A stretch of DNA of 64,000 nucleotides from a virus, in the IMG/VR virus record IMGVR_UViG_3300042898_002514; one strand, written 5' to 3'. Position 1 is the stretch's first letter, and every line of letters starts with the position of its first letter. The position numbers were made by a program, and so were the translations under genes. The notes beneath the pieces were generated by a model. That model worked only from the letters and a program-made list of their open reading frames with translations, had not been told where the DNA came from and did no database searches. Below are positions 1-9,945 of the stretch, in pieces.

Positions 1-66
1 CACAGAGGTAGTTGCGCTTCGCTGTTAACGAAGATGTCGTACGTTCGATCCGTACTCGGGGAGCCA
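1..66 (+). tRNA. tRNA-Asn(GTT), 5' truncated by window edge
   Basis: Anticodon arm ttcg-ctGTTaa-cgaa, T-loop GTTCGATC, 3' GCCA. Confidence 0.85.
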
Positions 67-72
67 GACAAT

Positions 73-146
73 GTATCTCTAATGTAATGGCAGCATCACA
101 GTCTCCAAAACTGTTCGTCGGGGTTCGAGTCCCTGGAGGTACGCCA
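73..146 (+). tRNA. tRNA-Trp(CCA)
   Basis: Acceptor gtatctc/gaggtac, acagt-ctCCAaa-actgt, GTTCGA, encoded CCA. Confidence 0.92.
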
Positions 147-154
147 AACAATTT

Positions 155-229
155 GCACGATTCGTCTATCGGTTAGGACGCTGCCCTTTCAAGGCGGAAA
201 GACGAGTTCGATTCTCGTATCGTGTACCA
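155..229 (+). tRNA. tRNA-Glu(TTC)
   Basis: gcacgat/atcgtgt, ctgcc-ctTTCaa-ggcgg, CCA. Confidence 0.93.
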
Positions 230-236
230 ATATACC

Positions 237-310
237 GCGGGATTAGTTTAATGGTCAAACGAAACCTTGCCAAGGTTTAGTCAGGAGTTCGATTCTCCTA
301 TCCCGCTCCA
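237..310 (+). tRNA. tRNA-Gly(GCC)
   Basis: gcgggat/atcccgc, aaacc-ttGCCaa-ggttt, U73, CCA. Confidence 0.93.
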
Positions 311-313
311 TAT

Positions 314-405
314 GCCAGCGAGACTTGACAGTCAGAGAGTCCTTATAAGACTTTTAGCGCCAGATTAGCGTTCTTGAGAGGGTTTGATTCCCTCCGCTGG
401 TACCA
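314..405 (+). tRNA. atypical tRNA with TAT anticodon (Ile?) and long variable arm
   Basis: gccagcg/cgctggt, gagtc-ctTATaa-gactt, ~20-nt variable arm, T-loop TTTGATT, ACCA. Confidence 0.75.
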
Positions 406-411
406 CACCAT

Positions 412-489
412 ATAGGGATGGCAGAGAGGCCCAATGCAACAGTCTGCAAAACTGTAAACCCGTGGGTTCGAATCCCACTCCCTATTCCA
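412..489 (+). tRNA. tRNA-Cys(GCA)
   Basis: ataggga/tccctat, acagt-ctGCAaa-actgt, U73, CCA. Confidence 0.92.
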
Positions 490-493
490 ATAT

Positions 494-570
494 ACCCCTG
501 TACGCTAATTGGTAGTGCGGGTAGACTTAAAATCTGCTGGATGGCGGTTCGAATCTGCCCAGGGGTACCA
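494..570 (+). tRNA. tRNA-Leu(TAA) with short variable loop
   Basis: acccctg/caggggt, gtaga-ctTAAaa-tctgc, 5-nt variable loop, ACCA. Confidence 0.85.
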
Positions 571-577
571 ATCAACC

Positions 578-632
578 AGTCTTGGACACGCAGACTTTAA
601 AGCGATGTGGGAGTAGGTGGAAGCCCTGCACC
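578..632 (+). ncRNA. candidate small structured RNA (two hairpins)
   Basis: agtct/agact hairpin plus gtagg-TGGAAGC-cctgc hairpin with a T-loop-like 7-nt loop, in a spacer between tRNAs. Confidence 0.3.
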
Positions 633-638
633 TAATAT

Positions 639-728
639 GGAAGTATGGCTGAGCATGGCTTAAGGCAGCAGTCTTGAAAACTGAAGGCTCGAAAGGGTCC
701 GTGGGTTCGAATCCTACTACTTCCGCCA
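639..728 (+). tRNA. tRNA-Ser(TGA)
   Basis: ggaagta/tacttcc, cagt-ctTGAaa-actg, long variable arm, GCCA. Confidence 0.93.
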
Positions 729-732
729 ATTT

Positions 733-806
733 TCCCGGATAATTAAATGGTATAATAATCGGCTGATAACCGGTCTTCGCAAGTTCGATTCTTGCTCTGG
801 GAACCA
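733..806 (+). tRNA. tRNA-Ile(GAT)
   Basis: tcccgga/tctggga, atcgg-ctGATaa-ccggt, ACCA. Confidence 0.92.
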
Positions 807-827
807 ATTTTTAAAATGGAGAATGAC

Positions 828-848
828 ATGAAACGAGGTAAACTCTAG
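828..848 (+). CDS. putative leader peptide MKRGKL
   Basis: GGAG Shine-Dalgarno at 818-821; ATG AAA CGA GGT AAA CTC TAG; stop overlaps a strong hairpin. Confidence 0.5.
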   Translation: MKRGKL

Positions 849-912
849 TGTCATCCTAGACCCCCGTATGGTCCTGGATGGCACGTAAAAGAAAATATTT
901 ACGATCCATCCA
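848..912 (+). promoter_or_regulatory. mutually exclusive hairpins upstream of tRNA-Lys
   Basis: A: 848-856 pairs with 876-884. B: 875-881 pairs with 906-912 and 884-889 with 898-903, covering tRNA nt 1-3. Confidence 0.55.
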
Positions 913-984
913 CGCTAAACTTTAGTGGCGAAGTACCCGGCTCTTAACCGGACTAACTGAGTTCGATTCTCAGAGCGTGGACCA
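910..984 (+). tRNA. tRNA-Lys(CTT)
   Basis: ccacgct/agcgtgg, ccgg-ctCTTaa-ccgg, ACCA. Confidence 0.9.
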
Positions 985-987
985 TAT

Positions 988-1063
988 GGGAGTATAGTGA
1001 AATGGTTATCACAGCAGACTTTTAATCTGCCAGTTCCGGGTTCGAGTCCCGGTGCTCCTACCA
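988..1063 (+). tRNA. tRNA-Lys(TTT)
   Basis: gggagta/tgctcct, gcaga-ctTTTaa-tctgc, ACCA. Confidence 0.93.
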
Positions 1064-1144
1064 TAGACAAACACATTAGAAGCCTTCGTGACTGTGGGCG
1101 AGTAGGTCTCTAAGTCGTTTCCGACTAGTGTGTTTTTCTATGGT
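1060..1144 (+). ncRNA. conserved-stem/variable-loop element copy 1
   Basis: accatagacaaacacattag ... ctagtgtgtttttctatggt, ~20-bp stem enclosing ~45 nt. Confidence 0.6.
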
Positions 1145-1189
1145 TAGTATCAGAAGATGTGATCGAAACAGGTGTACTAGTCATACACA

Positions 1190-1253
1190 ATGTCGTGACC
1201 GGAGGATGAGAAGTCGCAAGAGTAGGCCTGACCGCTAGAGGGTAGCGACACCA
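1190..1253 (+). ncRNA. candidate CCA-ending structured RNA (GTGACC..GATGAGAAG..CCGCTAG motif, short form)
   Basis: tgtcg/cgaca closing stem followed by CCA; motifs shared with 4530-4731. Confidence 0.45.
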
Positions 1254-1337
1254 TATAAAAACACATTAGGCCTGATCATAGATCATCGCGGGTATAGTGC
1301 CTTCCGAGCCGCGGACTTGAGTGTGTTTTTATATGGT
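1250..1337 (+). ncRNA. conserved-stem/variable-loop element copy 2
   Basis: accatataaaaacacatt ... agtgtgtttttatatggt, 18-bp stem enclosing ~52 nt. Confidence 0.6.
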
Positions 1338-1409
1338 AACGTAGCATAATGGTCGTGCACCTCCTTCATACGGAGCAAGGTGCTGGTTCGAATCCAGCCG
1401 TTACCACCA
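1335..1409 (+). tRNA. tRNA-Met or Ile2 (CAT)
   Basis: ggtaacg/cgttacc, ctcc-ttCATac-ggag, ACCA. Confidence 0.85.
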
Positions 1410-1412
1410 AGT

Positions 1413-1609
1413 TTTGTAAGTGTCAGCAAGAGAAAGACTCGCTAGGAAGATTCTTCGAAGGTCAACCTAGTGCAAAAGTAGGGCGGGTTCGAGTCCCGTA
1501 AAAGCAGCGGAGCACCTATGTCAAGTATTCCAAGTGATGTACCACCTCCCGTCCGGACCAGTGCAATCGGGTGAATGGTAGAGATTAAAGTGGCTCTACT
1601 ACTTACAAA
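1413..1609 (+). ncRNA. candidate ~197-nt ncRNA with internal T-loop hairpin
   Basis: Ends pair (tttgtaagt/acttacaaa); internal gcggg-TTCGAGT-cccgt and several hairpins; no long ORF. Confidence 0.55.
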
Positions 1610-1618
1610 TTCAATTAT

Positions 1619-1694
1619 CTCTCTAAAGTGTTATCTGGTTGCATCCGCGGTTTGGGGCCGTGTGGTCTAGGTTCGAATCCTAGTAGGGAGACCA
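1619..1694 (+). tRNA. tRNA-Pro(TGG)
   Basis: ctctcta/tagggag, cgcgg-ttTGGgg-ccgtg, ACCA. Confidence 0.88.
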
Positions 1695-1702
1695 GTTTCT
1701 GT

Positions 1703-1776
1703 TGGGGGTTAGTTAAATGGTATAACCGCGGATTTTGATTCCGCTATTAAAGGTTCGATTCCTTTACCCTCTGCCA
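1703..1776 (+). tRNA. tRNA-Gln(TTG)
   Basis: gcgga-ttTTGat-tccgc, 1-72 mismatch, GCCA. Confidence 0.92.
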
Positions 1777-1783
1777 AATTTAT

Positions 1784-1860
1784 CGGACCGTAATTCAATT
1801 GGATAGAAAGCAAGTCTTCGAAACTTGAGGTTGGGAGTTCGAATCTCTCCGGTCCGGCCA
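1784..1860 (+). tRNA. tRNA-Arg(TCG)
   Basis: cggaccg/cggtccg, caagt-ctTCGaa-acttg, GCCA. Confidence 0.9.
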
Positions 1861-1876
1861 TATAAAGGAAAATGCT

Positions 1877-2044
1877 ATGAAAACAATTACATTTAAAAAT
1901 AGATTCAACAATGAGCGAGTGGTCTGTAATGATCCCAAGGCTGTACAAGTAATTGACGGCATTGAGTACCTGTTGGTCAGCAAGACCATTCAAGATAGAA
2001 AATTTCTAATGCGTAAAGATGCATTGGAGAAGATTAAAACATAG
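1877..2044 (+). CDS. hypothetical protein (55 aa, MKTITFKNRFNNERVVC...)
   Basis: AAGGA SD; fills the gap between tRNAs; below ORF-track cutoff. Confidence 0.65.
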   Translation: MKTITFKNRFNNERVVCNDPKAVQVIDGIEYLLVSKTIQDRKFLMRKDALEKIKT

Positions 2045-2050
2045 ATCAAT

Positions 2051-2124
2051 GTTGTTCCTAGTGTAGTGGCTGCACAACTGTCTGTGAAACAGTTAGAGAG
2101 GGTTCGATTCCCCGGTTCAACCCA
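2051..2124 (+). tRNA. tRNA-His(GTG)
   Basis: actgt-ctGTGaa-acagt, G-1:C73, two acceptor mismatches, CCA. Confidence 0.82.
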
Positions 2125-2140
2125 ACAAAGTAGAAATATC

Positions 2141-2545
2141 ATGGAACAAGTAAAAATATTAAACACATTAAAGGGATCTGTTCGTAAGTTCGAAGAATTA
2201 CTAGGACGATCATTGTACAAGGCAGAAGCAGACGACTCAGTATTGACACTGTATCTGTCCAAGACAAACTATGTAAGATTCCAACATCACCAAGATTGTT
2301 GCGAAAGTGTTTACATAGAAGACATATGTGGTGACCTCGATGACCTTGTGGGAGCACCACTAGTTGAAGCTGAAGAAGTTTCTGACTATGAAGGTGAAGC
2401 TACAGGAGACGAGTCTTACACATGGACATTTTACAAGTTTGCTACACGCAAGGGATTTGTAACTGTTCGGTGGTATGGTTCCAGCAATGGATACTATTCC
2501 GAAAGTGTCAGTGTTGATGTAGTTGATACTACTATAAAGGATTAA
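2141..2545 (+). CDS. conserved phage hypothetical protein (HHQDCCE ... SNGYYSE motifs)
   Basis: ORF track; start moved to first ATG after tRNA-His. Confidence 0.8.
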   Translation: MEQVKILNTLKGSVRKFEELLGRSLYKAEADDSVLTLYLSKTNYVRFQHHQDCCESVYIEDICGDLDDLVGAPLVEAEEVSDYEGEATGDESYTWTFYKFATRKGFVTVRWYGSSNGYYSESVSVDVVDTTIKD

Positions 2546-2546
2546 T

Positions 2547-2622
2547 GCAACTTTAGCTGATGTGGTCATAGCGGCGGTTTGAAGAACCGTTGAACCAGGT
2601 TCGATTCCTGGAGGTTGCACCA
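2547..2622 (+). tRNA. tRNA-Phe(GAA)
   Basis: gcaactt/aggttgc, gcggt-ttGAAga-accgt, ACCA. Confidence 0.92.
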
Positions 2623-2630
2623 AGACAAAT

Positions 2631-2646
2631 GCGAGAATGGTGGAAT
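2631..2646 (+). pseudogene. 5' remnant of a tRNA-Leu-like gene
   Basis: gcgagaatggtggaat resembles the 5' end of tRNA-Leu at 4027 (gcgcaagtggtggaat), then breaks off into AT-rich sequence. Confidence 0.5.
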
Positions 2647-2660
2647 TTAATAAATATTAT

Positions 2661-3224
2661 ATGAACATATTATTCCTTCCAATTGATATTGAAATTCCAA
2701 AGATTGATACATCAAAAATACAGTCTACAATTAACGTCATCAACAACCTAACCTACATAAAAACTGCAGAGTATCAACAGTATTGGGATACTTCTAGAAT
2801 TACTGAAACAGTTGATGATACTTTAAAATCTGTACTAGATCAGTTGCCTATAAGCAAAGTAACAAATGTATATTATAAAGAGCAAAGACAAGCTGTGTCA
2901 CCTCATTACGATGTATATCCAAATATGAAATTTGAAGAAGGAGAATACACTAATATTTTAGATAACGAACCTGCAGGGTATCGTCTAGTCCTAGAAGGGT
3001 CCACTGATGTACTTTATGTTAAAAGTGGAGGCACGTTTAAGTTAGCAGAATTGCCATCTGTGCCTTGTTGTTATCTTTTAAATACCACAGCAGGGCTACA
3101 CATGCTCAAGGATGATCCGGGCAGAAAGATTATCTATATTAGAGGATTTATTGATACAGCAAGGCATCAGACGCTGATAGAAAAAAGTCTCAAACGTTAT
3201 AAAAATTTAGCAATTATTGCATAA
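2661..3224 (+). CDS. 2OG-Fe(II) oxygenase-like protein, paralog family A
   Basis: HYD...H motif, N-term ILFLPIDIEIP, C-term SLKRYKNLAI; TAAATA just upstream. Confidence 0.65.
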   Translation: MNILFLPIDIEIPKIDTSKIQSTINVINNLTYIKTAEYQQYWDTSRITETVDDTLKSVLDQLPISKVTNVYYKEQRQAVSPHYDVYPNMKFEEGEYTNILDNEPAGYRLVLEGSTDVLYVKSGGTFKLAELPSVPCCYLLNTTAGLHMLKDDPGRKIIYIRGFIDTARHQTLIEKSLKRYKNLAIIA

Positions 3225-3228
3225 CATT

Positions 3229-3303
3229 GCCGCCTTTGTATAATAGAGAATACAGCTCTCTTCCAAAGTGCGAATAGGAGTTCGATTCCTAGAGGTTGCA
3301 CCA
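3229..3303 (+). pseudogene. chimeric pseudo-tRNA (TCC-like loop; 3' end copied from tRNA-Phe)
   Basis: Acceptor and T stems mispair; 3280-3304 matches 2599-2623 at 24/25 nt. Confidence 0.7.
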
Positions 3304-3348
3304 ACTAAGTTGGACTCTTAGAACTCTACATAATTAATAAATACCAAC

Positions 3349-3912
3349 ATGCAAAACTTTTATAAACACTTTCCAGAAATAGATAATGTATATTGGACTA
3401 ACTATTTTTTGAAAGAATTCATACCAAAATATAAAATTTTTGAACAATTGTCTAGTCCTTTATATATGATGTATTTTAAAAAAGATTTTTATAAAGATTT
3501 AGAAATATTAAAACTTAGTTCGTTGCTAGTTAGTAAACTAAAATTTCCACCGATTGAATATTTTTCAATATTTAAACACACGTATTCCCAGGCCATTCAT
3601 GCTGATGGTAAATCAACATTGAGATATGCAAGCTTCAACTTACCTCTCGTGGGGTTTGAAGGGACAAGGATGTGTTTTTATAATACAAAATCAAATGTTA
3701 TTCCTAAAGTAGCAGATGCTTATTATTTTAAAGAAGATGATGTATGTCTTGCTACAGAACTAGAAGGCAAGAATGAATGGACATTAGTAAACAGTTCAAT
3801 CCCACATAATATTGTGAATGTAGATTTTAATAATCCTAGAATAACAGTATGCATTAGATTTAATGGTAATCCAAAACTTGAGGATCTAATAACAAATGAA
3901 ATTCAATCCTAA
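3349..3912 (+). CDS. 2OG-Fe(II) oxygenase/cupin-like protein, paralog family B
   Basis: IHAD...IPHNIVN...RITVCIRF; TAAATA upstream; stop codon lies in a tRNA 3' remnant. Confidence 0.65.
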   Translation: MQNFYKHFPEIDNVYWTNYFLKEFIPKYKIFEQLSSPLYMMYFKKDFYKDLEILKLSSLLVSKLKFPPIEYFSIFKHTYSQAIHADGKSTLRYASFNLPLVGFEGTRMCFYNTKSNVIPKVADAYYFKEDDVCLATELEGKNEWTLVNSSIPHNIVNVDFNNPRITVCIRFNGNPKLEDLITNEIQS

Positions 3913-3923
3913 GGACGGCACCA
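3902..3923 (+). pseudogene. orphan tRNA 3' end (T-loop half + acceptor strand + CCA)
   Basis: ttcaatcct-aaggacggc-acca; complementary (one bulge) to gccgcct at 3229. Confidence 0.55.
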
Positions 3924-3944
3924 AAAAATATTTTAAAATAACTG

Positions 3945-3973
3945 TTGACAAGATAACGTAATGACTATATAAT
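3945..3973 (+). promoter_or_regulatory. sigma70-type promoter
   Basis: TTGACA-17-TATAAT with AT-rich upstream tract. Confidence 0.85.
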
Positions 3974-4026
3974 AGTTACATACTAAGCAATTAGTAATGT
4001 TCATTAAAAATTTAAAGTAAGATTTT

Positions 4027-4110
4027 GCGCAAGTGGTGGAATGGTATACACGATGGTCTTAGAAGCCATTGCCGAAAGGATTGAGAGTTCGAGTCTCTCC
4101 TTGCGCACCA
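4027..4110 (+). tRNA. tRNA-Leu(TAG)
   Basis: gcgcaag/cttgcgc, atggt-ctTAGaa-gccat, long variable arm, ACCA. Confidence 0.93.
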
Positions 4111-4193
4111 TATTGAAACATATTAAAGATAGGGTTGTAACGGTTCATTGAACTTTAGTACATACCGTGGTAGTTAGTGTGTTTCAATATGGT
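4107..4193 (+). ncRNA. conserved-stem/variable-loop element copy 3
   Basis: accatattgaaacatattaa ... ttagtgtgtttcaatatggt, 20-bp stem enclosing ~47 nt. Confidence 0.6.
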
Positions 4194-4203
4194 AAAGAAT
4201 TTT

Positions 4204-4278
4204 GCCTGGTTAGCTCAGGGGTAGAGCGTCTCGTTTACACCGAGAGGGTCCGCGGTTCGAAACCGTGACCAGGTACCA
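4204..4278 (+). tRNA. tRNA-Val(TAC)
   Basis: gcctggt/accaggt, tctcg-ttTACac-cgaga, ACCA. Confidence 0.93.
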
Positions 4279-4297
4279 CTAGTAGAAAGAAGACTGT

Positions 4298-4438
4298 ATG
4301 ATACCCAAAGAAATTATAGACCAGGCATACCGAAATATTCCTAACAAAGTGGGGTTTGCTGTCAATTGGAATTTTACGCCGACTTGGCGTGGTGTGAGAT
4401 ATTACTGGTATAAATTACTACGTAAAGCAACAAGATAA
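4298..4438 (+). CDS. hypothetical protein (46 aa)
   Basis: MIPKEIIDQAYRN...; fills the gap between tRNA-Val and tRNA-Ser. Confidence 0.5.
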   Translation: MIPKEIIDQAYRNIPNKVGFAVNWNFTPTWRGVRYYWYKLLRKATR

Positions 4439-4439
4439 T

Positions 4440-4527
4440 GGAGCATTGGCCGACCGGTTAAGGCAACAGATTGCTAATCTGTCACTGCGCAAGTGGTGAG
4501 TAGGTTCGATTCCTACATGCTCCGCCA
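4440..4527 (+). tRNA. tRNA-Ser(GCT)
   Basis: ggagcat/atgctcc, acaga-ttGCTaa-tctgt, long variable arm, GCCA. Confidence 0.93.
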
Positions 4528-4529
4528 GA

Positions 4530-4731
4530 ACGTTCCGAGTGTCTTCGGATAGTGTGACCCGCACGATGAGAAGTAGTGTGACAACTACGGGTGGTAGTCT
4601 TTAAACCCAAAGGCCGCTAGCAATGCGAGAACGGTCCCTGTCGGGAAGCGGGTGGAAGGTACGAGTGAGAGGTATGATAGCGTCATATCTTTCTGTACTA
4701 TAATTACCGCCGGGGGACGTCAGAGCAACCA
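4530..4731 (+). ncRNA. candidate ~200-nt structured RNA (GTGACC..GATGAGAAG..CCGCTAG motif, long form)
   Basis: acgttcc/gggacgt closing stem, many hairpins, GC-rich, ends in ACCA. Confidence 0.55.
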
Positions 4732-4752
4732 GATTTTAATAAAGGAAACATA

Positions 4753-4965
4753 ATGAAACCAGGTCCAAATTACAAGATGTCATCTTTGACTAAAGCAAGT
4801 CTAGCAATGAGTAGAGTTCTAGATCCTCACAAGCGAGGTGAGTGGAAACGTGCCATGATTGATGCAGAGCTATGTGCCGCTGTTCAACCCAAGCGTGAAA
4901 CACGCAAACCGGGCAATGGTAATTTTACCACCCATGCATCTGGGACCGTATCTTCAGGAAGTTGA
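4753..4965 (+). CDS. hypothetical protein
   Basis: AAGGAA SD, 70-aa ORF. Confidence 0.65.
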   Translation: MKPGPNYKMSSLTKASLAMSRVLDPHKRGEWKRAMIDAELCAAVQPKRETRKPGNGNFTTHASGTVSSGS

Positions 4966-4966
4966 T

Positions 4967-5257
4967 ATGAGCAAGGGATCTAAAGCAAGACCCTTTAGTG
5001 TCAGCCAGCGTGAGTTTGACAATAGATGGGATACAATTTTTCGCAAGAGTCCTCAAGAAGTGCAAGATGCAGTTCGAGAAGATGAAGAATTTAACAGGAT
5101 TGATACTATGCAAGTACGAGTAAAAGAAGATGAAAGTAAAATCGGATCTTGCGGTTGCGGTCGTTCGCCAACCGGCAAGTGCATCGGTTGGCACGGACTA
5201 ACCGAAGAAGCATTTAAAGAAAAACTTCAAGAGTATAAACTCAACGAAGGTAAGTGA
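4967..5257 (+). CDS. CDGSH-type iron-sulfur-binding domain protein
   Basis: CGCGRSPTGKCIGWH resembles the CxCx2S-x-CDGxH motif. Confidence 0.65.
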   Translation: MSKGSKARPFSVSQREFDNRWDTIFRKSPQEVQDAVREDEEFNRIDTMQVRVKEDESKIGSCGCGRSPTGKCIGWHGLTEEAFKEKLQEYKLNEGK

Positions 5258-5263
5258 AATATT

Positions 5264-5339
5264 GGGGGATTGGTATACTTGGCTAACACACCTGGTTTGC
5301 AACCAGGAGCAAACGGTTCGAATCCGTTATCCTCCACCA
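5264..5339 (+). tRNA. tRNA-Ala(TGC)
   Basis: G3.U70 pair, cctgg-ttTGCaa-ccagg, ACCA. Confidence 0.93.
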
Positions 5340-5345
5340 AGCATT

Positions 5346-5419
5346 GCCCTTATAGTTAAATGGTATAACGGCGGTTTTGTAATCCGCAGTTTGCAGTTCG
5401 ATTCTGTGTAGGGGCACCA
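5346..5419 (+). tRNA. tRNA-Thr(TGT)
   Basis: gccctta/taggggc, gcgg-tttTGTaat-ccgc, ACCA. Confidence 0.9.
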
Positions 5420-5429
5420 ATATAGTCAA

Positions 5430-5464
5430 AAGATGTTGACAAACATCTTGTATAGTGCTATAAT
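5430..5464 (+). promoter_or_regulatory. sigma70 promoter with extended -10 and an inverted repeat over the -35
   Basis: TTGACA(5436)-17-TATAAT(5459), TG at the extended -10 position; aagatgtt-gaca-aacatctt palindrome. Confidence 0.85.
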
Positions 5465-5470
5465 AGTTTT

Positions 5471-5717
5471 GTTGTGTAGCAATACACAACCGGCAAAGTG
5501 AAAGGTAGATGAGAGAAGACACTACTGTTTGGCTTCATGCCAAATGGAACTTAACTCCAAATACTCTGAAAAAGTATCCGTGTCATTGTGTTCCGGCCCC
5601 AAAAGATATTTGTTTATTGATTACCGGAAATATAGTGACCCCTGTGGATTGTATATTGAGCATTGTTATTTGCACATTGTCCAGTCTTTTACTTGACCTT
5701 TCACTGAACCGTTTTTT
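5471..5717 (+). ncRNA. candidate ~245-nt sRNA/leader with 7-nt periodic UUG tract
   Basis: Starts at predicted TSS; agtgaaaggt/acctttcact long-range stem; U-tract end; TTG at 5649, 5656, 5663, 5670, 5677. Confidence 0.6.
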
Positions 5718-5731
5718 AACCTGAGGAAAAT

Positions 5732-5977
5732 ATGACATCAAGATTAACATCAGAATTAGCAGTAGAACAGATAGGCAATAGGTTTGACTTGGTACTAGTT
5801 GCCAGTCAGCGAGCCCGAGAGTTAAAAAACGGTTCAATGCCCAAAGTCGCTGAACCAGGCAAAACATTTATTTCTACAGCACTTCGAGAGATTGAAGAAG
5901 GCAAGTATACCTATAAAGATTATATTAATAAATTACCAAAAAAACGTAAAGGACAACGAGATGAATATTTCACTTAG
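5732..5977 (+). CDS. rpoZ: RNA polymerase omega subunit
   Basis: IGNRFDLVLVASQRARELKNG...ALREIEEG signature; GAGG SD. Confidence 0.9.
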   Translation: MTSRLTSELAVEQIGNRFDLVLVASQRARELKNGSMPKVAEPGKTFISTALREIEEGKYTYKDYINKLPKKRKGQRDEYFT

Positions 5978-6533
5978 AAAAGCCAGCGCCCTACAAAACA
6001 GCATCAATGATGCTATCAAGGGCATTAAAATCACAACATCGATTGATCTCAATGAATTTCAAGATGTAGCAGTAGAACTAAAGAATGCCAACGATACGCT
6101 GTTTAACAACGACAGTCGGAGACAACGCCTGCTGTTGGCCTTGTATAACATTCGTGGTCTTGTGGGCAGTGCCAACGCACAAAGCGGCATTGATTTGAAA
6201 TTGGCCACTGCTGCCTTTGTGGACAAACGTGTTGCTCAACTTGAAGGTCTTGTAGTAGATCCTGTAACTAATCTTGCCGTGATCAACGGTAAGTTGGACA
6301 AGATTCGCAACGACAAGAGCGAAAGTAGCCGTAGCCGTATCTATGGATTTAGTGACACAGTGTCTACTAATGTCATCGGTCACGAACAGCTAGATGTGAT
6401 TAGTACAGAGATTAAAAATCTCAAGAAACAAAAGCAGAAACTCAACGATGAAGTACTTGAGTTAAATATCAAAACAGAGATTCCACTCAGTGAAGAAGTA
6501 GTGGCAACATTGCAATCAGAAGGTTTAGTTTAA
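5961..6533 (+). CDS. hypothetical coiled-coil protein
   Basis: 190-aa ORF from ATG 5961. Confidence 0.8.
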   Translation: MNISLRKASALQNSINDAIKGIKITTSIDLNEFQDVAVELKNANDTLFNNDSRRQRLLLALYNIRGLVGSANAQSGIDLKLATAAFVDKRVAQLEGLVVDPVTNLAVINGKLDKIRNDKSESSRSRIYGFSDTVSTNVIGHEQLDVISTEIKNLKKQKQKLNDEVLELNIKTEIPLSEEVVATLQSEGLV

Positions 6534-6535
6534 AA

Positions 6536-6737
6536 ACCCGTGATCCCGTACACGTAATAAACGGGGGTGGGGCAGTCACCATAGAGAGCGCCGGGTATTC
6601 AATGCTATGACCATTAGTTCTCTGAGTTAAGGGATACTAGAACGCATTGGGTGAGGTTTAGCACCTTTCCAGAAGAATAAATGTTATGGACAGAGTAACC
6701 GCTCAGTTCGGGGCTTATGTGGTGTAAGTAGCCGGAC
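6536..6737 (+). ncRNA. candidate ~200-nt structured RNA
   Basis: Non-coding GC-rich gap with stems cccgt/acggg, ggtg/cacc, caatgc/gcattg, ttcgg/ccgga. Confidence 0.45.
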
Positions 6738-6850
6738 ACTTTATTAGAACAAATTAGAATCTTGTAGAAATACTTGATTAGGTTTGGCTTCCCCGGAGCT
6801 CTTTAGCATAGCTATAACTTTTAATATGCCTTAGTTTGTTTTAATAAAGT
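6738..6850 (+). ncRNA. conserved-stem/variable-loop element copy 4 (divergent)
   Basis: actttattagaacaaatta ... tagtttgttttaataaagt, 19-bp stem; core AACAAATTA/TAGTTTGTT covaries with copies 1-3. Confidence 0.5.
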
Positions 6851-6853
6851 TAT

Positions 6854-6929
6854 CGCAGGATGGAGAAGGTGGTATCTCGGAAGTCTCATAAGCTTCAGAT
6901 CGTCGGTTCGACTCCGACTCCTGCAACCA
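6854..6929 (+). tRNA. initiator-type tRNA-Met(CAT)
   Basis: C1.A72 mismatch, gaagt-ctCATaa-gcttc, ACCA. Confidence 0.88.
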
Positions 6930-6934
6930 ATATT

Positions 6935-7084
6935 ATGAAATTATTTGAAGCAACAATCAGAGTCAACGGCAAAGAATTCAAGGATCGTGTTGGTGCAGAA
7001 ACAGCACAGGAAGCAATGAAGCTTCTGCAACAGAGATACGGTCCTAGAGCAGTGCCCTATGTTCCTCATATGATTCCCAATTAA
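6935..7084 (+). CDS. hypothetical protein (49 aa)
   Basis: MKLFEATIRVNG...; between two tRNAs. Confidence 0.6.
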   Translation: MKLFEATIRVNGKEFKDRVGAETAQEAMKLLQQRYGPRAVPYVPHMIPN

Positions 7085-7086
7085 TT

Positions 7087-7163
7087 CGGAGTGTGGCGCA
7101 GTCTGGTAGCGCACCTGGTTTGGGACCAGGGGGTCCAAGGTTCGAATCCTTGTACTCCGACCA
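7087..7163 (+). tRNA. tRNA-Pro(TGG), second copy
   Basis: cggagtg/tactccg, cctgg-ttTGGga-ccagg, ACCA. Confidence 0.93.
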
Positions 7164-7176
7164 ATTTTTTAAATTT

Positions 7177-7773
7177 ATGAAAATAACAAAATGTAATCTA
7201 TTTCCAATTTCACTTTTTGAAGTTTCAGAGTTTTTGACTGTAACTCAGTGCAATGATATTGTCACTTACATACGAGGATTACCTAAAAAACCTTATCCGG
7301 CAATGACTGGGAAATCGTTTACTACATTTAATATTTCTAATAGATTATTAGAAGACATTCAACAACATGTAAAATCATGTGCTAATATGTTATCATCATT
7401 ATCTGATATTGTGTTAGAATATGAAAAAACATCTGGTTACAACTGTGGTAAACTAGGTAATTCTTGGGCTAGTTTTCAATATAAAGATAGTGCATTATTA
7501 ACCCATACTCATTATTCTAGTTTAATATCGGGCGTATTGTATTTGCAAGTAGATAATAATAGTAGTAAAATTATTTTTAATAATGTTAATCCTTTTTTAG
7601 AATATCTACCTAAAAAACATCTTACAACATATACATACAATAAAATGAGTTTCGAACCCACTGTTGGGAAATTAATAGTATTTCCCAGCTGGTTACCACA
7701 TGGTTCAGACACTGAGTTGAATAAGTCGGACGAACGAATAATTATTAGTTTCAATACTGAATTAATAATTTAG
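7177..7773 (+). CDS. putative 2OG-Fe(II) oxygenase (TIGR02466-like)
   Basis: HTH..S.ISGVLYL...GKLIVFPSWLPH...ERIIISFN. Confidence 0.85.
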   Translation: MKITKCNLFPISLFEVSEFLTVTQCNDIVTYIRGLPKKPYPAMTGKSFTTFNISNRLLEDIQQHVKSCANMLSSLSDIVLEYEKTSGYNCGKLGNSWASFQYKDSALLTHTHYSSLISGVLYLQVDNNSSKIIFNNVNPFLEYLPKKHLTTYTYNKMSFEPTVGKLIVFPSWLPHGSDTELNKSDERIIISFNTELII

Positions 7774-7808
7774 TCAGTTTTCTACCAAATTTTTTATAAA
7801 AGGCAACA

Positions 7809-7994
7809 ATGACAAAAGCAGAAAATCAAGCGGCAACAGAAGCAGCGATGGCTGAGTTTCTAGCCAAAGGTGGTGTAGTTCAACAACTAAAACCAAATCA
7901 AAGTGGTAGGGTCGAAGGAGAATCATATTCAATGTGGTCTAAGAAAAAGCCTTCAACTTCACCTTTGGCCAATCCTCCAGAAGACGACGAATAA
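7809..7994 (+). CDS. hypothetical protein
   Basis: AAGG SD; EFLAKGGVVQ motif. Confidence 0.7.
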   Translation: MTKAENQAATEAAMAEFLAKGGVVQQLKPNQSGRVEGESYSMWSKKKPSTSPLANPPEDDE

Positions 7995-8008
7995 ATAGAA
8001 ATAACAAT

Positions 8009-8082
8009 GCGGGGTTCGTATAGTGGTAATACCTCAGATTTCCAATCTGATGCGGACAGTTCGATTCTGTTACCCCGCTCCA
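8009..8082 (+). tRNA. tRNA-Gly(TCC)
   Basis: gcggggt/accccgc, tcaga-ttTCCaa-tctga, TCCA. Confidence 0.93.
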
Positions 8083-8086
8083 AATT

Positions 8087-8665
8087 ATGCACACAGTTAT
8101 TGACAGAAACGATACCTTTAGAAAATTTGACTTTAGTTCTACGATCGGTAAAGAAGATAATACAACTGCCATAGGCATTATAAAGAATATTGTCGCCGAT
8201 GGGAACTATTTTAAAAATAGTCCAAAGTATCAAACCCAAGAAAACATATTTGCAAGACCCGAAGCTGTATGGTTAAAGTACCGTATGAGTTTCTTGTTCA
8301 GTGTGTTTATGTATCTTGGGCGAGAAGTAAAAGTCAATAACATGATGGCCTGGGCATTTATGACCAATCTAGAAGGTGTAGAAGATCGTGAAAAGCTATG
8401 GCACGATCATTGGCATCCTACAAATCCAAATGCCAAGATGCTGAGTGGTATATTTTATCTGCATATTCCCGAGGATGTAAAAGACCGTGATTATTGCGGA
8501 ACTGAAATGGCGCCAAATGGACCCCAAGGCGAAGGAAAGTTCTTTGTTCGCCCTACTGATTACAGTTGGTTGTTGTATCCCAGTAATCAATGGCATCGAC
8601 CGGGCGTGGTCCAAAGCAATGATTATAGATTTATCCTAGCAGTGGACGTAGAATATCTACCGTAA
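8087..8665 (+). CDS. 2OG-Fe(II) oxygenase-like protein
   Basis: WHDH..LSGIFYLH..GTE..LLYPSNQWHRP..RFILA. Confidence 0.7.
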   Translation: MHTVIDRNDTFRKFDFSSTIGKEDNTTAIGIIKNIVADGNYFKNSPKYQTQENIFARPEAVWLKYRMSFLFSVFMYLGREVKVNNMMAWAFMTNLEGVEDREKLWHDHWHPTNPNAKMLSGIFYLHIPEDVKDRDYCGTEMAPNGPQGEGKFFVRPTDYSWLLYPSNQWHRPGVVQSNDYRFILAVDVEYLP

Positions 8666-8727
8666 TAAAACTGTAACAGTCTTTTTGTCTAAAAGACATA
8701 AGTACGCATATAAACTGAAAGAAAAAA

Positions 8728-9162
8728 ATGTTATCCTTTATCACCAATCTCACTGACCCACTCCTAGATTACATAAAGGATGATCCTGTTCGCCCTGAGT
8801 TGCCTAAGGAGTTTAGGGTAGGAAAGAACAAGTTTGTGAGTGCTCTAGTTGATGACATTCCTCGAGCTATGGTATGTGTGAGTTTACACGATTTCATACC
8901 GGAAGATGTCGATGATTTGATCAAAGATACGGAAGTGCCAACCGCAGCAATTTTCTACACCATTTGGAGTTACGCCCCGGGGGCTGGTGTAGAATTGCTG
9001 AGAGCAACTGTAGCAGAAATACAAAAGCAATTTCCCAGCATAGAACGCTTTGTCACTCTGAGTCCAAAGACCGATATGGCCAAGAAGTTTCATACCAAAA
9101 ATGGCGCCGGAGTTTTTAGAGAAAATTTAGACACCGTAAACTACGAGTACGATGTAAAATAA
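8728..9162 (+). CDS. malonyl-CoA-decarboxylase C-terminal-like (GNAT-fold) protein
   Basis: AIFYTIWS..GAG..LL....FVTLSP motif. Confidence 0.6.
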   Translation: MLSFITNLTDPLLDYIKDDPVRPELPKEFRVGKNKFVSALVDDIPRAMVCVSLHDFIPEDVDDLIKDTEVPTAAIFYTIWSYAPGAGVELLRATVAEIQKQFPSIERFVTLSPKTDMAKKFHTKNGAGVFRENLDTVNYEYDVK

Positions 9163-9219
9163 CAACTCTCCCTGACAGGCGGAGTATAATGAGCCAAATA
9201 GTCTGTCATCAACAACACG

Positions 9220-9263
9220 GCCCTGCCCTCTAAGACATAGTACTTAGGGCAGGGTTTTTCTTT
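9220..9263 (+). terminator. intrinsic terminator
   Basis: ccctgccct...agggcaggg stem followed by T-tract. Confidence 0.7.
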
Positions 9264-9265
9264 AT

Positions 9266-9340
9266 CCGGCCTTAGTATAATGGATAATACAGCGGTCTTC
9301 TACACCGTGAATATGGGTTCGATTCCTGTAGGCCGGACCA
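9266..9340 (+). tRNA. tRNA-Arg(TCT)
   Basis: ccggcct/aggccgg, gcggt-ctTCTac-accgt, ACCA. Confidence 0.92.
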
Positions 9341-9341
9341 C

Positions 9342-9415
9342 GCTCTTGTAGTAAAATGGTATTACACAGTCTTGGTAAGACTGAATTTCAAGTTCAATTC
9401 TTGGCTAGAGCACCA
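9342..9415 (+). tRNA. tRNA-Thr(GGT)
   Basis: gctcttg/ctagagc, cagtc-ttGGTaa-gactg, ACCA. Confidence 0.88.
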
Positions 9416-9416
9416 C

Positions 9417-9445
9417 TTGACAACTTAAAGGAAAGACAGTATAAT
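9417..9445 (+). promoter_or_regulatory. sigma70 promoter (leaderless mRNA)
   Basis: TTGACA-17-TATAAT; ATG starts 7 nt after the -10 box. Confidence 0.85.
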
Positions 9446-9451
9446 AGTCGT

Positions 9452-9676
9452 ATGTACAAAGTAATAGAAAAACAAAGCTCAACAGAGTTTGCCAATTTGG
9501 ATTTGGCCTTGACATTTGCCAAAGAATTAAATGTGTTTGTTACCATTCAAGGTGGCGAATTTGAAATCGTAGGGGTGTTTGGTGTAGACAGCATCAAAGA
9601 CGGAAAGTGCCCAGATGGCGTTAAATACGATTGGAATAAATCGAGCCGTATCGGCCGTGTTAAAAAGGAAAGATAA
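9452..9676 (+). CDS. hypothetical protein
   Basis: MYKVIEKQ... ORF starting at the predicted TSS. Confidence 0.75.
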   Translation: MYKVIEKQSSTEFANLDLALTFAKELNVFVTIQGGEFEIVGVFGVDSIKDGKCPDGVKYDWNKSSRIGRVKKER

Positions 9677-9683
9677 AAACTAG

Positions 9684-9902
9684 ATGGCTAAAGAAGATAT
9701 AATCGAATTAACAGGTGTTGTAGAAGAAGTTCTGCCGGGCAGTATGTATAAAGTAAAAATTGAAAACATGCCCAACTTGATGCTGTGTTATACCAGCGGT
9801 AAACTCAAGCAACACAAGATTCGTATCATTCTTGGTGATCGTGTCAAGATAGAAGTTAGCCCTTACGATCTGTCAAAAGGTCGTGTTTCTTATAGATTGT
9901 AA
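9684..9902 (+). CDS. infA: translation initiation factor IF-1
   Basis: MAKEDIIE..GVVEEVLP...SGKL..HKIRIILGDRVKIEVSPYDLSKGR. Confidence 0.95.
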   Translation: MAKEDIIELTGVVEEVLPGSMYKVKIENMPNLMLCYTSGKLKQHKIRIILGDRVKIEVSPYDLSKGRVSYRL

Positions 9903-9945
9903 CAAAAGGCATTATGCCGTATAGAGAAAGAACGGGTACAAAAAA

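What the first reader, a model, noticed from the sequence alone, without database searches (positions are those of the whole stretch)
1060..6850. Family of four covarying long stems, each enclosing a different 45-75 nt 'cargo' RNA, docked at tRNA ends
Seen: elements at 1060-1144, 1250-1337, 4107-4193 and 6738-6850 share an 18-20 bp stem with core AACAHATTA...AGTKTGTT and a conserved U.G wobble. Compensatory changes are visible: outer ga/tc vs ta/ta vs ttg/caa, and core C-G vs A-T in copy 4. The enclosed sequences are unrelated and contain their own small hairpins. In copies 1-3 the stem begins with the ACCA 3' end of the upstream RNA and its TGGT end pairs back with that ACCA; copy 2 also overlaps the first GGT of the next tRNA. 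Inference: a constant scaffold with a variable insert looks like a dispersed guide/sRNA cassette system (for example RNase III-type processing stems releasing small RNAs, or a protein-bound handle with a variable guide or decoy). It could also control tRNA 3'-end maturation.
Basis: partly seen in the sequence, partly recalled or inferred. Interest (0 to 1): 0.8.

Follow-up and report, generated by a model that had tools for sequence, protein, structure and literature searches.

The report
Stem-closed RNA cassettes on phage tRNAs
Four RNA hairpins in an uncultured lake phage's tRNA gene cluster share one 20-base-pair stem that starts on the CCA end of the preceding RNA and encloses a different small folded RNA each time. 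They belong to a large, apparently undescribed phage RNA family that sits mostly behind the tRNAs for lysine, glutamate and glutamine and probably marks where the long transcript is cut.

Summary
All four stems fold far better than shuffles. A covariance model finds exactly these four in the 64 kb, all on the tRNA strand. Rfam has no match.

The family is large: more than 230 IMG/VR phage contigs and at least 118 unrelated, conserved cargo types. It is almost absent from about 186,000 prokaryote genomes. This scan has already reported the family on at least eight other genomes.

New here:
- **Docking preference.** The stems dock overwhelmingly on three tRNAs: Lys(UUU) 76%, Glu(UUC) 36% and Gln(UUG) 24%. 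Most other tRNA types are at 0-4% and none exceeds 15%. An independent locus set replicated this.
- **Shared geometry.** Unrelated stems of other sequence clamp the same CCA ends. They have the same length (20-22 bp), so geometry rather than sequence is what is shared.
- **RNA-level helix.** It tolerates G·U but not A·C, ends sharply at pairs 1 and 20, and has no target-site duplications.
- **Movable cargo.** The same cargo occurs behind different tRNAs.

Best reading: co-transcribed RNA cassettes whose two-turn helix is a structure-specific processing mark, probably for host RNase III. The mark would release small structured RNAs and free the tRNA end. The enzyme and the cargo functions are unproven. 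No support was found for a guide or antisense role.

The parts
1060..1144 (+). Hairpin cassette 1. 5' arm 1060-1079, cargo 1080-1124, 3' arm 1125-1144. It starts on A73-CCA of tRNA-Lys(UUU).
   Evidence: Fold z -4.9. CM 59.7 bits. The same cargo occurs in L023, L063 and L071 at 93-98% identity: behind tRNA-Lys in L071, behind tRNA-Arg in L063, and with no tRNA directly upstream in L023.
1250..1337 (+). Hairpin cassette 2. 5' arm 1250-1269, cargo 1270-1317, 3' arm 1318-1337. It starts on the ACCA at the end of the 105-nt spacer RNA. Its last GGT is G1-G2-U3 of tRNA-Met.
   Evidence: Fold z -5.2. CM 61.5 bits. There are five orthologous cargos, with two compensated pairs in the cargo hairpins.
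4107..4193 (+). Hairpin cassette 3. 5' arm 4107-4126, cargo 4127-4173, 3' arm 4174-4193. It starts on A73-CCA of tRNA-Leu(UAG) and lies 10 nt before tRNA-Val.
   Evidence: Fold z -7.5. CM 67 bits. Orthologs in L070 and L090 are not docked on a CCA, and their outer pair has covaried.
6738..6850 (+). Hairpin cassette 4, a divergent member with a 75-nt cargo. It has no CCA dock. It follows a conserved 200-nt non-coding stretch and ends 3 nt before tRNA-Met 6854-6929.
   Evidence: Fold z -4.1. CM 50.7 bits. It shows the core change C-G to A-U at pair 15 and G.U at pair 10. No cargo homolog was found in the fetched loci.
988..1063 (+). tRNA-Lys(UUU), the dock of cassette 1.
   Evidence: ARAGORN. 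Rfam 68.5 bits. This is the preferred dock of the family: 52 of 68 distinct Lys(UUU) genes carry a CCA-anchored helix.
1145..1249 (+). 105-nt non-tRNA RNA between cassettes 1 and 2. The ACCA that follows it (1250-1253) forms the base of cassette 2.
   Evidence: No Rfam or ARAGORN hit. It is 100% identical in L105. Cassette 1 together with this stretch is absent from L009, L061 and L103, where tRNA-Lys is joined directly to cassette 2.
1335..1409 (+). tRNA-Met(CAU). Its first three bases are shared with the 3' arm of cassette 2.
   Evidence: In 32 of 196 family members the stem ends on the first 3 nt of the next tRNA. Among downstream tRNAs within 12 nt, CAU tRNAs are the commonest, with 23.
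4027..4110 (+). tRNA-Leu(UAG), the dock of cassette 3.
   Evidence: Leu(UAG) is the fourth most frequent dock, 10 of 67.
3945..3973 (+). Perfect sigma-70 consensus promoter in front of the unit tRNA-Leu, cassette 3, tRNA-Val and onward.
   Evidence: 12 of 12 hexamer matches with a 17-nt spacer.
5436..5464 (+). Perfect sigma-70 consensus promoter in front of the unit that runs through small ORFs and a 200-nt non-coding stretch into cassette 4 and tRNA-Met.
   Evidence: 12 of 12 matches with a TG extension.

Best explanation
The four elements are members of a large phage RNA family of 'stem-closed cassettes'. Each is transcribed as part of a long tRNA, non-coding RNA and mRNA precursor from early-type sigma-70 promoters.

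Each cassette folds on itself. A helix of fixed length, about two turns (pairs 1-20, with a frequent mismatch at pair 9 and a U.G at pair 17), encloses an independently folded small RNA of about 30-150 nt.

The helix usually begins exactly at the discriminator base and CCA of the preceding tRNA. That tRNA is mostly Lys(UUU), Glu(UUC) or Gln(UUG). The helix often ends at or a few bases before the next tRNA.

Inferred mechanism: the two-turn helix is a structure-specific processing mark, most likely a substrate of the host's double-strand-specific RNase III. RNase P would cut at the next tRNA and exonucleases would trim back to the CCA. Cutting separates the neighbours, frees the tRNA's clamped CCA end and releases the cargo as a stable small RNA on a short stem. 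Because the arms are near-identical, recombination within them swaps and inserts cargos.

Shown: the RNA-level helix, its fixed length, the docking rule, and that the same cargo recurs at different docks.
Inferred: the enzyme, the cut positions, recombination within the arms as the way cargos move, and that the cargos have functions of their own.
For: **Family and specificity**
117 matches have 6 or more of 9 extra outer pairs.
- The same pattern in 185,579 prokaryote genomes gave 122 matches with outer pairing at chance level. Only about 6 are real, all on freshwater MAG contigs.

**RNA helix on the tRNA strand**
- Same-strand tRNAs outnumber opposite-strand ones 2706 to 232.
- In 72 members not found by the pattern, core positions 10-18 show 75 G.U but only 4 A.C cells. 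Uncompensated changes sit mostly in the 5' arm, opposite the G/U-rich 3' arm.
- Outer pairs covary.
- In 28 tandem pairs an arm pairs better with its own partner 12 times and with the neighbour's arm 2 times.
- Both hairpins form in the MFE and centroid fold of the 422-nt block.

**Fixed length**
- Pairing is 81-100% at pairs 1-8 and 10-19 and 70% at pair 20 in the tRNA-docked class (65-100% and 56-66% in the other two classes). It drops to about 35% beyond either end in docked and undocked members alike.

**Geometry rather than sequence**
- At least six unrelated stems of 16-22 bp (for example ACCATTTGTTTTG...CAAAACAAATGGT) also start on the CCA of tRNA-Glu.
- The length mode is 20-22 bp for non-family stems and 19-21 bp for family stems. 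The shuffled control gave 2 hits among about 1,900 flanks.

**Docking**
- 81 of 196 members start at offset -3 of a tRNA.
- Lys(UUU), Gln(UUG) and Glu(UUC) together carry a stem in 65 of 172 cases, against 20 of 1249 for all other types.
- This was replicated on 114 new loci: 37 of 109 against 13 of 733.

**Co-transcription**
- Perfect promoters lie upstream and there is no terminator at the stems.

**RNase III likeness**
- E. coli RNase III needs 11 bp between the cut and the helix end.
- Its distal box is a U-A pair plus a U.G pair.
- The natural T7 R1.1 site has a mismatch next to the cut (PMC1540722).
- Here pairs 18 and 17 are U-A and U.G, and pair 9 is a mismatch in 73% of docked members.

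**No phage RNase III**
- Three complete 354-374 kb genomes that carry the element have no RNase III gene, so a host enzyme would be needed.

**Cargo conservation and mobility**
- 118 cargo types were found.
- The same cargo occurs behind Lys, Glu, Arg or a non-tRNA stretch.
- The window has cassette 1 plus the 105-nt RNA inserted relative to L009, L061 and L103.
- Cargo hairpins show compensated pairs.
Against: - No transcript data could be obtained. Transcription, cleavage and stability of the products are therefore all inferred.
- The fit to the E. coli RNase III boxes is only partial: no G-C at proximal-box position 1 and a mismatch at position 3 under my register. The host, and hence its RNase III rules, are unknown.
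- Where a cassette lies exactly between two tRNAs, RNase P plus 3' trimming could define both ends without RNase III.
- The strong conservation of the 10-bp core is more than RNase III would require. It may instead reflect common descent, recombination or a second ligand.
- Nothing explains why Lys, Glu and Gln tRNAs are preferred.
- The core statistics come from loci first found with an exact core pattern. My relaxed scan counted G.U as paired, which favours G.U over A.C to some degree.
Confidence: 0.55

Rival explanations
1. CCA clamp for a special tRNA set. The main job of the helix is to hold the 3' CCA end of tRNA-Lys(UUU), Glu(UUC) and Gln(UUG) in a duplex. These are the three tRNAs that carry a 2-thiolated wobble uridine in bacteria (my own knowledge) and that known anticodon nucleases attack (PrrC; PARIS cuts tRNA-Lys). 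The clamp would delay or gate their maturation, or protect them, during the conflict with tRNA-targeting host defences. The cargo would be secondary, or a decoy.
For: - Selectivity: Lys(UUU) 52 of 68, Glu(UUC) 35 of 96, Gln(UUG) 17 of 70. Lys(CUU) is 3 of 32, and eleven tRNA types have none.
- Replicated on independent loci.
- Convergence: unrelated stems clamp the same tRNA-Glu CCA.
- Hairpin-bearing Gln and Glu tRNAs are closest (up to 97% identity) to hairpin-less Gln and Glu tRNAs, not to tRNA-Lys. Stems have therefore been gained or lost repeatedly at these tRNAs.
- Recurrent neighbours of the arrays are a calcineurin-like phosphoesterase and a DSP/PTP-type phosphatase, domain types known from RNA-repair systems.
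- Phage tRNAs as a counter to anticodon nucleases is an established idea (PMC10264068, listed).
Against: - About a third of members, including copy 4, are not docked on any CCA.
- Copy 3 docks on tRNA-Leu.
- The window's own tRNA-Glu and tRNA-Gln carry no stem.
- The clamp idea does not explain 118 conserved cargo types.
- Cargo loops do not mimic anticodon loops.
- No defence or anti-defence assay exists.
Confidence: 0.2
2. Sequence-specific protein handle. The conserved core (AAACACAUUA paired with UAGUGUGUUU) is bound or cut by a dedicated phage or host protein. That protein would use the stem as a handle and the cargo as a displayed ligand, decoy or guide.
For: - The core is far more conserved than the flanking outer stem or the cargo. 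In 72 members not found by the exact pattern, pairs 11 and 16 are A-U in all 72, and pairs 4, 5 and 18 are nearly invariant.
- The U.G at pair 17 is kept in 46 of 72 of these members.
Against: - Stems of entirely different sequence but the same length and docking occur at the same tRNA ends.
- The core tolerates compensated and wobble changes.
- No RNA-binding or nuclease gene stands out among the recurrent array neighbours.
- Core conservation is inflated by how the loci were found.
- No antisense targets were found for the cargos.
Confidence: 0.13
3. Selfish or neutral recombination cassette. The near-identical arms are homology patches through which DNA segments are shuffled between co-infecting phages. 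The hairpin only keeps the insert from disturbing the flanking tRNAs, and the cargos have no function.
For: - The same cargo occurs at different docks, and there is a clean insertion of cassette 1 plus spacer in the window relative to L009, L061 and L103.
- Copy number is low and variable, 1-3 per complete genome.
- Stems are gained and lost between 97%-identical tRNAs.
Against: - Cargos are conserved across phages at 85-98% identity, with compensated pairs.
- The helix length is fixed and the constraints are RNA-specific, with G.U tolerated and A.C not.
- There are no target-site duplications.
- There are no orphan arms in the window.
- The tRNA preference is hard to explain by neutral recombination.
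Confidence: 0.08
4. DNA-level element, such as a miniature inverted-repeat transposon or a recombinase site, or a transcription terminator.
For: - The arms are imperfect inverted repeats of 20 bp.
- Copy 1 contains one weak terminator-like match inside its cargo.
Against: - There are no target-site duplications at any of five offsets.
- Interiors are unrelated, unlike the copies of a transposon family.
- Strand bias follows the tRNAs.
- Wobble asymmetry is specific to one strand.
- No U-tract follows the stems, and terminator-like sites are fewer than in shuffles.
- The next tRNA often starts inside the stem.
Confidence: 0.03

Closest known systems
RNase III processing helices of polycistronic transcripts: phage T7 early sites such as R1.1 (PMC1540722); rRNA operon stalks and the hairpin after tRNA metY in E. 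coli (these last two from my own knowledge)
   Same: - A helix of about two turns inside a long precursor.
- It separates neighbouring functional RNAs.
- It has a U-A/U.G doublet and a mismatch near the middle, as in R1.1.
- A host enzyme is presumed, since the phage genomes have no rnc gene.
   Different: - Here the helix is a reusable module around more than 100 different small RNAs.
- It is anchored base-for-base on a tRNA's CCA end.
- It prefers three tRNA species.
- It is conserved in sequence across hundreds of phages.
- Cleavage has not been shown.
Phage T4 stable RNAs species 1 and 2 (rnaC, rnaD) in the T4 tRNA cluster
   Same: Small structured RNAs of unknown function, encoded among phage tRNA genes on the same strand. 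rnaC has a T-arm, like some cargos here.
   Different: - T4 has no member of this stem family (best CM hit 13 bits).
- T4 rnaC and rnaD are single genes, not cassettes with a common closing stem.
tRNA-linked small RNAs released by tRNA-processing enzymes: the tRNA-pre-miRNA units of murine gammaherpesvirus 68, and the bacterial 3' external transcribed spacer of glyW-cysT-leuZ (my own knowledge, not checked here)
   Same: A small RNA hairpin rides directly behind a tRNA, so tRNA-end processing sets one of its ends.
   Different: Those are single, sequence-unrelated cases without a shared closing stem, without CCA pairing and without cargo exchange.
Cassette systems with constant imperfect inverted repeats: integron attC sites, and the promoter-early stem-loops of T4-type phages (my own knowledge)
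   Same: Constant short repeats border variable inserts, and the inserts are exchanged between genomes.
   Different: - Those act on DNA and carry genes.
- Here the constraints are on RNA pairing, the inserts are 30-150 nt non-coding RNAs, and no recombinase is evident.

Membership tests
Any Rfam 15 family | Covariance-model score at or above the family's gathering score | tested here: not met
   Only tRNA matches in the window at gathering threshold. Nothing on the four elements at E up to 1 in positions 1-10000.
RNase III processing helix | Regular double-stranded RNA of about two helical turns (about 20-22 bp) | tested here: met
   Pairs 1-20 are formed and pairing drops to background outside, in docked and undocked members. 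The helix length mode is 19-21 bp.
RNase III processing helix | E. coli-type distal, middle and proximal box content at set distances from the cut (PMC1540722) | tested here: inconclusive
   The U-A plus U.G doublet at pairs 18 and 17 equals the canonical distal box. Pairs 8 and 10 are A-U or U-A as required. But there is no G-C at proximal-box position 1 and a mismatch at position 3 in my register. The host enzyme is unknown.
RNase III processing helix | Staggered cleavage that leaves 2-nt 3' overhangs and depends on rnc | not testable with these tools
Intrinsic terminator | G+C-rich hairpin followed directly by a U-tract | tested here: not met
   Stems are A+U-rich and are followed by a tRNA or mixed sequence. 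There are 4 terminator-like sites in 9.5 kb against 6.3 in shuffles, and none is formed by a closing stem.
Miniature inverted-repeat transposon | Target-site duplication flanking terminal inverted repeats, with related interiors among copies | tested here: not met
   Direct repeats flanking 175 distinct members are no more frequent than random controls. Interiors fall into 118 unrelated types.
T4 species 1 / species 2 RNA | Sequence or structure homology to rnaC or rnaD | tested here: not met
   The family CM scores at most 13 bits on the T4 tRNA cluster. blastn of the element region against 50,697 phage records gave no match, and a consensus member gave only one 21-nt chance hit.
Antisense or guide small-RNA system | Variable part complementary to a target RNA or DNA | tested here: not met
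   Best duplex z-score is -3.99 among 540 cargo-target pairs within the window. Host targets could not be tested.
Retron msr/msd RNA | Inverted repeats a1/a2 next to a reverse transcriptase gene | not tested
   No reverse transcriptase was seen among the 38 window ORFs scanned against Pfam, but the window was not scanned exhaustively.

The most novel reading that the evidence does not exclude
The CCA-anchored two-turn helix is a dedicated device for the three wobble-2-thiouridine tRNAs (Lys UUU, Glu UUC, Gln UUG). It would keep phage copies of the tRNAs most exposed to host anticodon nucleases as clamped, uncharged 'pro-tRNAs', and on cutting would co-release a swappable library of small structured RNAs that act as decoys or inhibitors of host RNA-targeting defences. 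That would make it an RNA-only anti-defence cassette system, exchanged between lake phages.
Probability: 0.12. Interest if true: 0.9.

Novelty: new variant of a known kind. Interest (0 to 1): 0.7.

Why it matters
Phage tRNA clusters are usually read as lists of tRNA genes. Here a sizeable share of the cluster is a modular system of small structured RNAs with a common wrapper.

The family is abundant in freshwater viromes and has no Rfam family. I found no description of it in the literature I could search.

Three results give a concrete handle for experiments on how large phages process their tRNA transcripts, and on whether they deploy small RNAs in the contest over host tRNA-cleaving defences:
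- The docking rule (tRNA-Lys, tRNA-Glu and tRNA-Gln).
- The fixed two-turn geometry shared by unrelated stems.
- The evidence that cargos are exchanged.

If the helix is simply an RNase III site, this is still the first case I know of a reusable processing cassette anchored on the CCA end.

Tried and rejected
- **Rfam.** Nothing at gathering threshold or at E up to 1.
- **Cultured phages.** megablast, blastn and tblastn against 50,697 phage records found no cultured relative carrying the element. A 21-nt hit in Phage NCTB is not a member: the CM is negative and there are no tRNAs nearby.
- **Whole genome and reads.** No genome is held for this window.
- **Phage-encoded RNase III.** PF14622 is absent from five element-bearing records, three of them complete.
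- **Antisense targets.** None for the four cargos in the window.
- **Anticodon-loop mimicry in cargo loops.** Only 6 of 30 seven-nt loops fit the loose pattern, and three of those are T-loops.
- **A common cargo motif.** GTAG (44 against 24 expected) and T-arm-like AGGTT(C) are enriched only in subsets, and no motif is universal. GAGUAG, seen in three window RNAs and twice in T4 rnaC, is not enriched in cargos.
- **Anticodon-shift origin of the Lys/Gln/Glu preference.** Rejected, because the nearest relatives are same-acceptor tRNAs.
- **Alternative pairing of neighbouring arms,** which would enclose the 105-nt RNA (I1). It is possible, but an arm's own partner fits better.
- **T4-type late promoter inside the 5' arm (TATAAAAA).** Rejected by inspection, because positions 8-9 vary freely.
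- **Target-site duplications.** None.
- **Apparent clamps behind tRNA-Lys(CUU).** 21 of 32 under a loose criterion, but these are an artefact of the G/U-rich 3' arm of the cassette behind the adjacent tRNA-Lys(UUU). They fall to 3 of 32 under the stricter criterion.
- **Literature.** Four full-text searches found no description.

Full report
**What the window is**

The first 9.4 kb hold 26 tRNA genes, all on the + strand. They are interspersed with small ORFs and conserved non-coding stretches. The rest of the window encodes:
- T4-type functions, namely a gp9/10-like N-terminus and a clamp-loader ATPase
- ThyX
- KDO-synthesis genes
- two ORFs of about 2,500 aa

No cultured phage is close, and no whole genome is held. 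Three perfect sigma-70 consensus promoters on the + strand (3945, 5436, 9417) head mixed tRNA, RNA and mRNA units.

All four elements fold as a long closing stem around their own small hairpins. Z-scores run from -4.1 to -7.5, and no shuffle folds as well.

I aligned the four copies with 61 members that carry different cargo (A1). The 20-22 bp helix has 87% of cells paired, against 77% in shuffles and 31-52% when the partner is slid. Thirteen pairs show double changes. Pair 9 is a recurrent mismatch and pair 17 is a U.G.

The covariance model built from this alignment finds exactly the four elements in the 64 kb with filters off. The next hit scores 17 bits. A weight-matrix scan finds no orphan arms.

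**It is a large, phage-restricted family**

In 117 matches the stem continues outward. A second scan for longer cargos gave 114 further loci.

The same pattern in 185,579 prokaryote genomes serves as a control. Its 122 matches have outer pairing centred on chance (3-4 of 9). Only about six look real, and those sit on contigs of freshwater MAGs.

Rfam has no matching family. Four full-text searches found no description. Earlier agents of this scan met the same family on at least eight other genomes and also found it undescribed. My report confirms theirs and adds to it.

**The constraint is on RNA**

- tRNAs on the element's strand outnumber those on the other strand 2706 to 232.
- In 72 members that the exact pattern did not select, core pairs 10-18 contain 75 G.U cells but only 4 A.C cells. 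Uncompensated changes sit mostly in the 5' arm, which faces a G/U-rich 3' arm. Most 3'-arm changes come with a compensating change. My scan counted G.U as paired, so this contrast is somewhat favoured by design.
- The helix has sharp ends. Pairing is 65-100% at pairs 1-8 and 10-19 and 56-70% at pair 20, then falls to about 35% outside, whether or not a tRNA is docked.
- Where two cassettes are neighbours, each arm fits its own partner better than the neighbour's arm, 12 times against 2.
- Both hairpins form in the MFE and centroid folds of the 422-nt block 988-1409.
- There are no target-site duplications and no terminator features.

**Cargo**

The 196 well-defined members of the first locus set carry 118 unrelated cargo types with a median length of 49 nt. 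No motif is universal. A minority contain T-arm-like hairpins.

Cargos are conserved between phages. Copies 1, 2 and 3 have homologs at 85-98% identity, and the cargo hairpins show compensated pairs.

Cargos also move:
- Copy 1's cargo lies behind tRNA-Lys in the window and L071, behind tRNA-Arg in L063, and with no tRNA directly upstream in L023.
- Copy 2's cargo lies directly between tRNA-Lys and tRNA-Met in L009, L061 and L103, and behind tRNA-Glu in L003.
- Relative to L009, L061 and L103, the window and L105 carry an insertion of cassette 1 plus a 105-nt RNA, with its joints inside the arms.

Complete 354-374 kb phage genomes hold one to three members. I found no antisense target for the four cargos inside the window.

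**New: a docking rule**

Of the 196 members, 81 start exactly at the discriminator base of an ARAGORN tRNA. Another 32 end on the first three bases of the next tRNA.

Share of each tRNA type followed by a family stem:

| tRNA | With stem |
|---|---|
| Lys(UUU) | 37 of 56 |
| Gln(UUG) | 15 of 56 |
| Glu(UUC) | 13 of 60 |
| Every other type | 0-4 each (20 of 1249 in all) |
| Lys(CUU), one of those | 1 of 21 |

These stems carry 24, 12 and 11 different cargo types respectively. Counting unique tRNA-cargo combinations gives P of about 1e-28 under equal use.

The rule replicated on the 114 new loci: Lys(UUU) 24 of 30, Glu 8 of 51, Gln 5 of 28, all others 13 of 733, and Lys(CUU) 0 of 23.

The preference is not an anticodon-shift artefact. 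Hairpin-bearing Gln and Glu tRNAs are closest to hairpin-less Gln and Glu tRNAs, at up to 97% identity.

In bacteria these three tRNAs are the ones with a 2-thiolated wobble uridine, and they are the classic targets of anticodon nucleases. That statement rests on my own knowledge. PMC10264068, on phage tRNAs and tRNA-targeting defences, was only listed and I did not read it. The counts are not phylogenetically corrected.

**New: geometry, not sequence**

I searched for any helix that starts at the discriminator base, requiring at least 13 Watson-Crick pairs and a length of at least 15. The results:

| tRNA | With a CCA-anchored helix |
|---|---|
| Lys(UUU) | 52 of 68 |
| Glu(UUC) | 35 of 96 |
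| Gln(UUG) | 17 of 70 |
| Leu(UAG) | 10 of 67 |
| Eleven other types | 0 |
| Shuffled flanks (control) | 2 of about 1,900 |

Fourteen of the tRNA-Glu helices are not family members. They belong to several unrelated sequence classes. All start NCCA and almost all end TGGT, and most are 20-22 bp long, enclosing spans of 40-234 nt. The shared features are therefore the CCA anchor and the two-turn length. That points to a structure-specific reader rather than a sequence-specific one.

**Mechanism**

A two-turn duplex is the classic minimal substrate of bacterial RNase III. In E. coli, 11 bp are needed between the cut and the helix end. The distal box is a U-A pair plus a U.G pair at positions 10-11. 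The natural T7 R1.1 site has a mismatch at the position next to the cut (PMC1540722).

Here pairs 18 and 17 are U-A and U.G, and pair 9 is unpaired in 73% of tRNA-docked members. In that register the cut falls near pairs 7-8. The tRNA would keep a trailer of about 3 nt, which exonucleases could trim back to CCA. The next tRNA would have a short leader for RNase P to remove. The cargo would be released on a stem of about 12 bp.

The fit to the proximal box is only partial, and the host is unknown. Element-bearing phages encode no RNase III of their own, so a host enzyme would be needed. Where a cassette exactly fills the gap between two tRNAs, RNase P and 3' trimming alone could release it. I could obtain no RNA data, so all of this is inference.

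**Rivals**

1. **A CCA clamp that gates or protects the three preferred tRNAs.** This reading draws on the docking rule, the convergence of unrelated stems, and the phosphoesterase and phosphatase genes that recur next to the arrays. It does not explain undocked members or the cargo diversity.
2. **A sequence-specific protein handle.** This is weakened by the non-family stems.
3. **A neutral recombination cassette.** This is weakened by cargo conservation and the RNA-specific constraints.
4. **A DNA transposon or a terminator.** Both are rejected.

**Verdict**

The feature is real, widespread and apparently undescribed. Its anatomy is now well defined, and two new regularities were found. Its function is inferred and the cargo roles are unknown. 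Because the scan has reported the family before, the added value of this report lies in the docking rule, the geometry result, the negative controls and the evidence that cargos move.

Noticed in passing
window 807-909, 1410-1618, 4528-4740, 6534-6737 (also 571-638): Further non-coding stretches of the tRNA array are conserved in 16-22 blastn matches to the fetched loci (571-638 in two) at 70-98% identity, and match no Rfam family. 6534-6737 lies directly in front of cassette 4. 1410-1618 contains a T-arm-like hairpin.
   Followed up: partly
window 5732-5977 (+): An 81-aa ORF matches the RNA polymerase omega / Rpb6 family (PF01192, E 5e-15). Homologs recur in 14 of the fetched phage loci next to tRNA arrays. 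A phage-encoded omega-like subunit is unusual.
   Followed up: partly
window 10219-10686 and 11400-11987 (+): A DSP/PTP-type phosphatase and a calcineurin-like phosphoesterase recur beside tRNA arrays in 14 and 20 loci. Both domain types are known from RNA end-healing and repair systems.
   Followed up: partly
window 314-405 (+): ARAGORN calls a 92-nt tRNA-Ile(UAU) that Rfam's tRNA model does not report even at E up to 1. It has a normal acceptor stem, T-arm and CCA but an oversized middle. It may be an intron-bearing or tRNA-like RNA.
   Followed up: no
window 3945-3973, 5436-5464, 9417-9445 (+): Three promoters match the sigma-70 consensus at 12 of 12 positions with a 17-nt spacer. Each heads a mixed tRNA and ORF unit.
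   Followed up: no
window 6854-6929 (+): The tRNA-Met that follows cassette 4 has a C1-A72 mismatch at the top of the acceptor stem, the bacterial initiator hallmark. I read this by eye from the sequence.
   Followed up: no
L111:4195, L046, L053, L067, L013, L017, L247 and others (3' flanks of tRNA-Glu): Several unrelated stem families of 20-22 bp also begin on the CCA of tRNA-Glu(UUC) and end in TGGT, enclosing about 80-175 nt. They may be sister families of the element studied.
   Followed up: partly
window 38254-45675 and 47199-54881 (+): Two giant ORFs of 2,473 and 2,560 aa. The first has a T4 gp9/10-like N-terminus and weak tail-fibre similarity to cyanophage and pelagiphage proteins.
   Followed up: no
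L056, L081, L059 (upstream of stems whose 5' arm reads GGTCCACCAnAAACAC or CTCCACCATAAAACAC): In one subclass the stem docks on a CCA-ended T-arm plus acceptor-like piece that is not a full tRNA.
   Followed up: no
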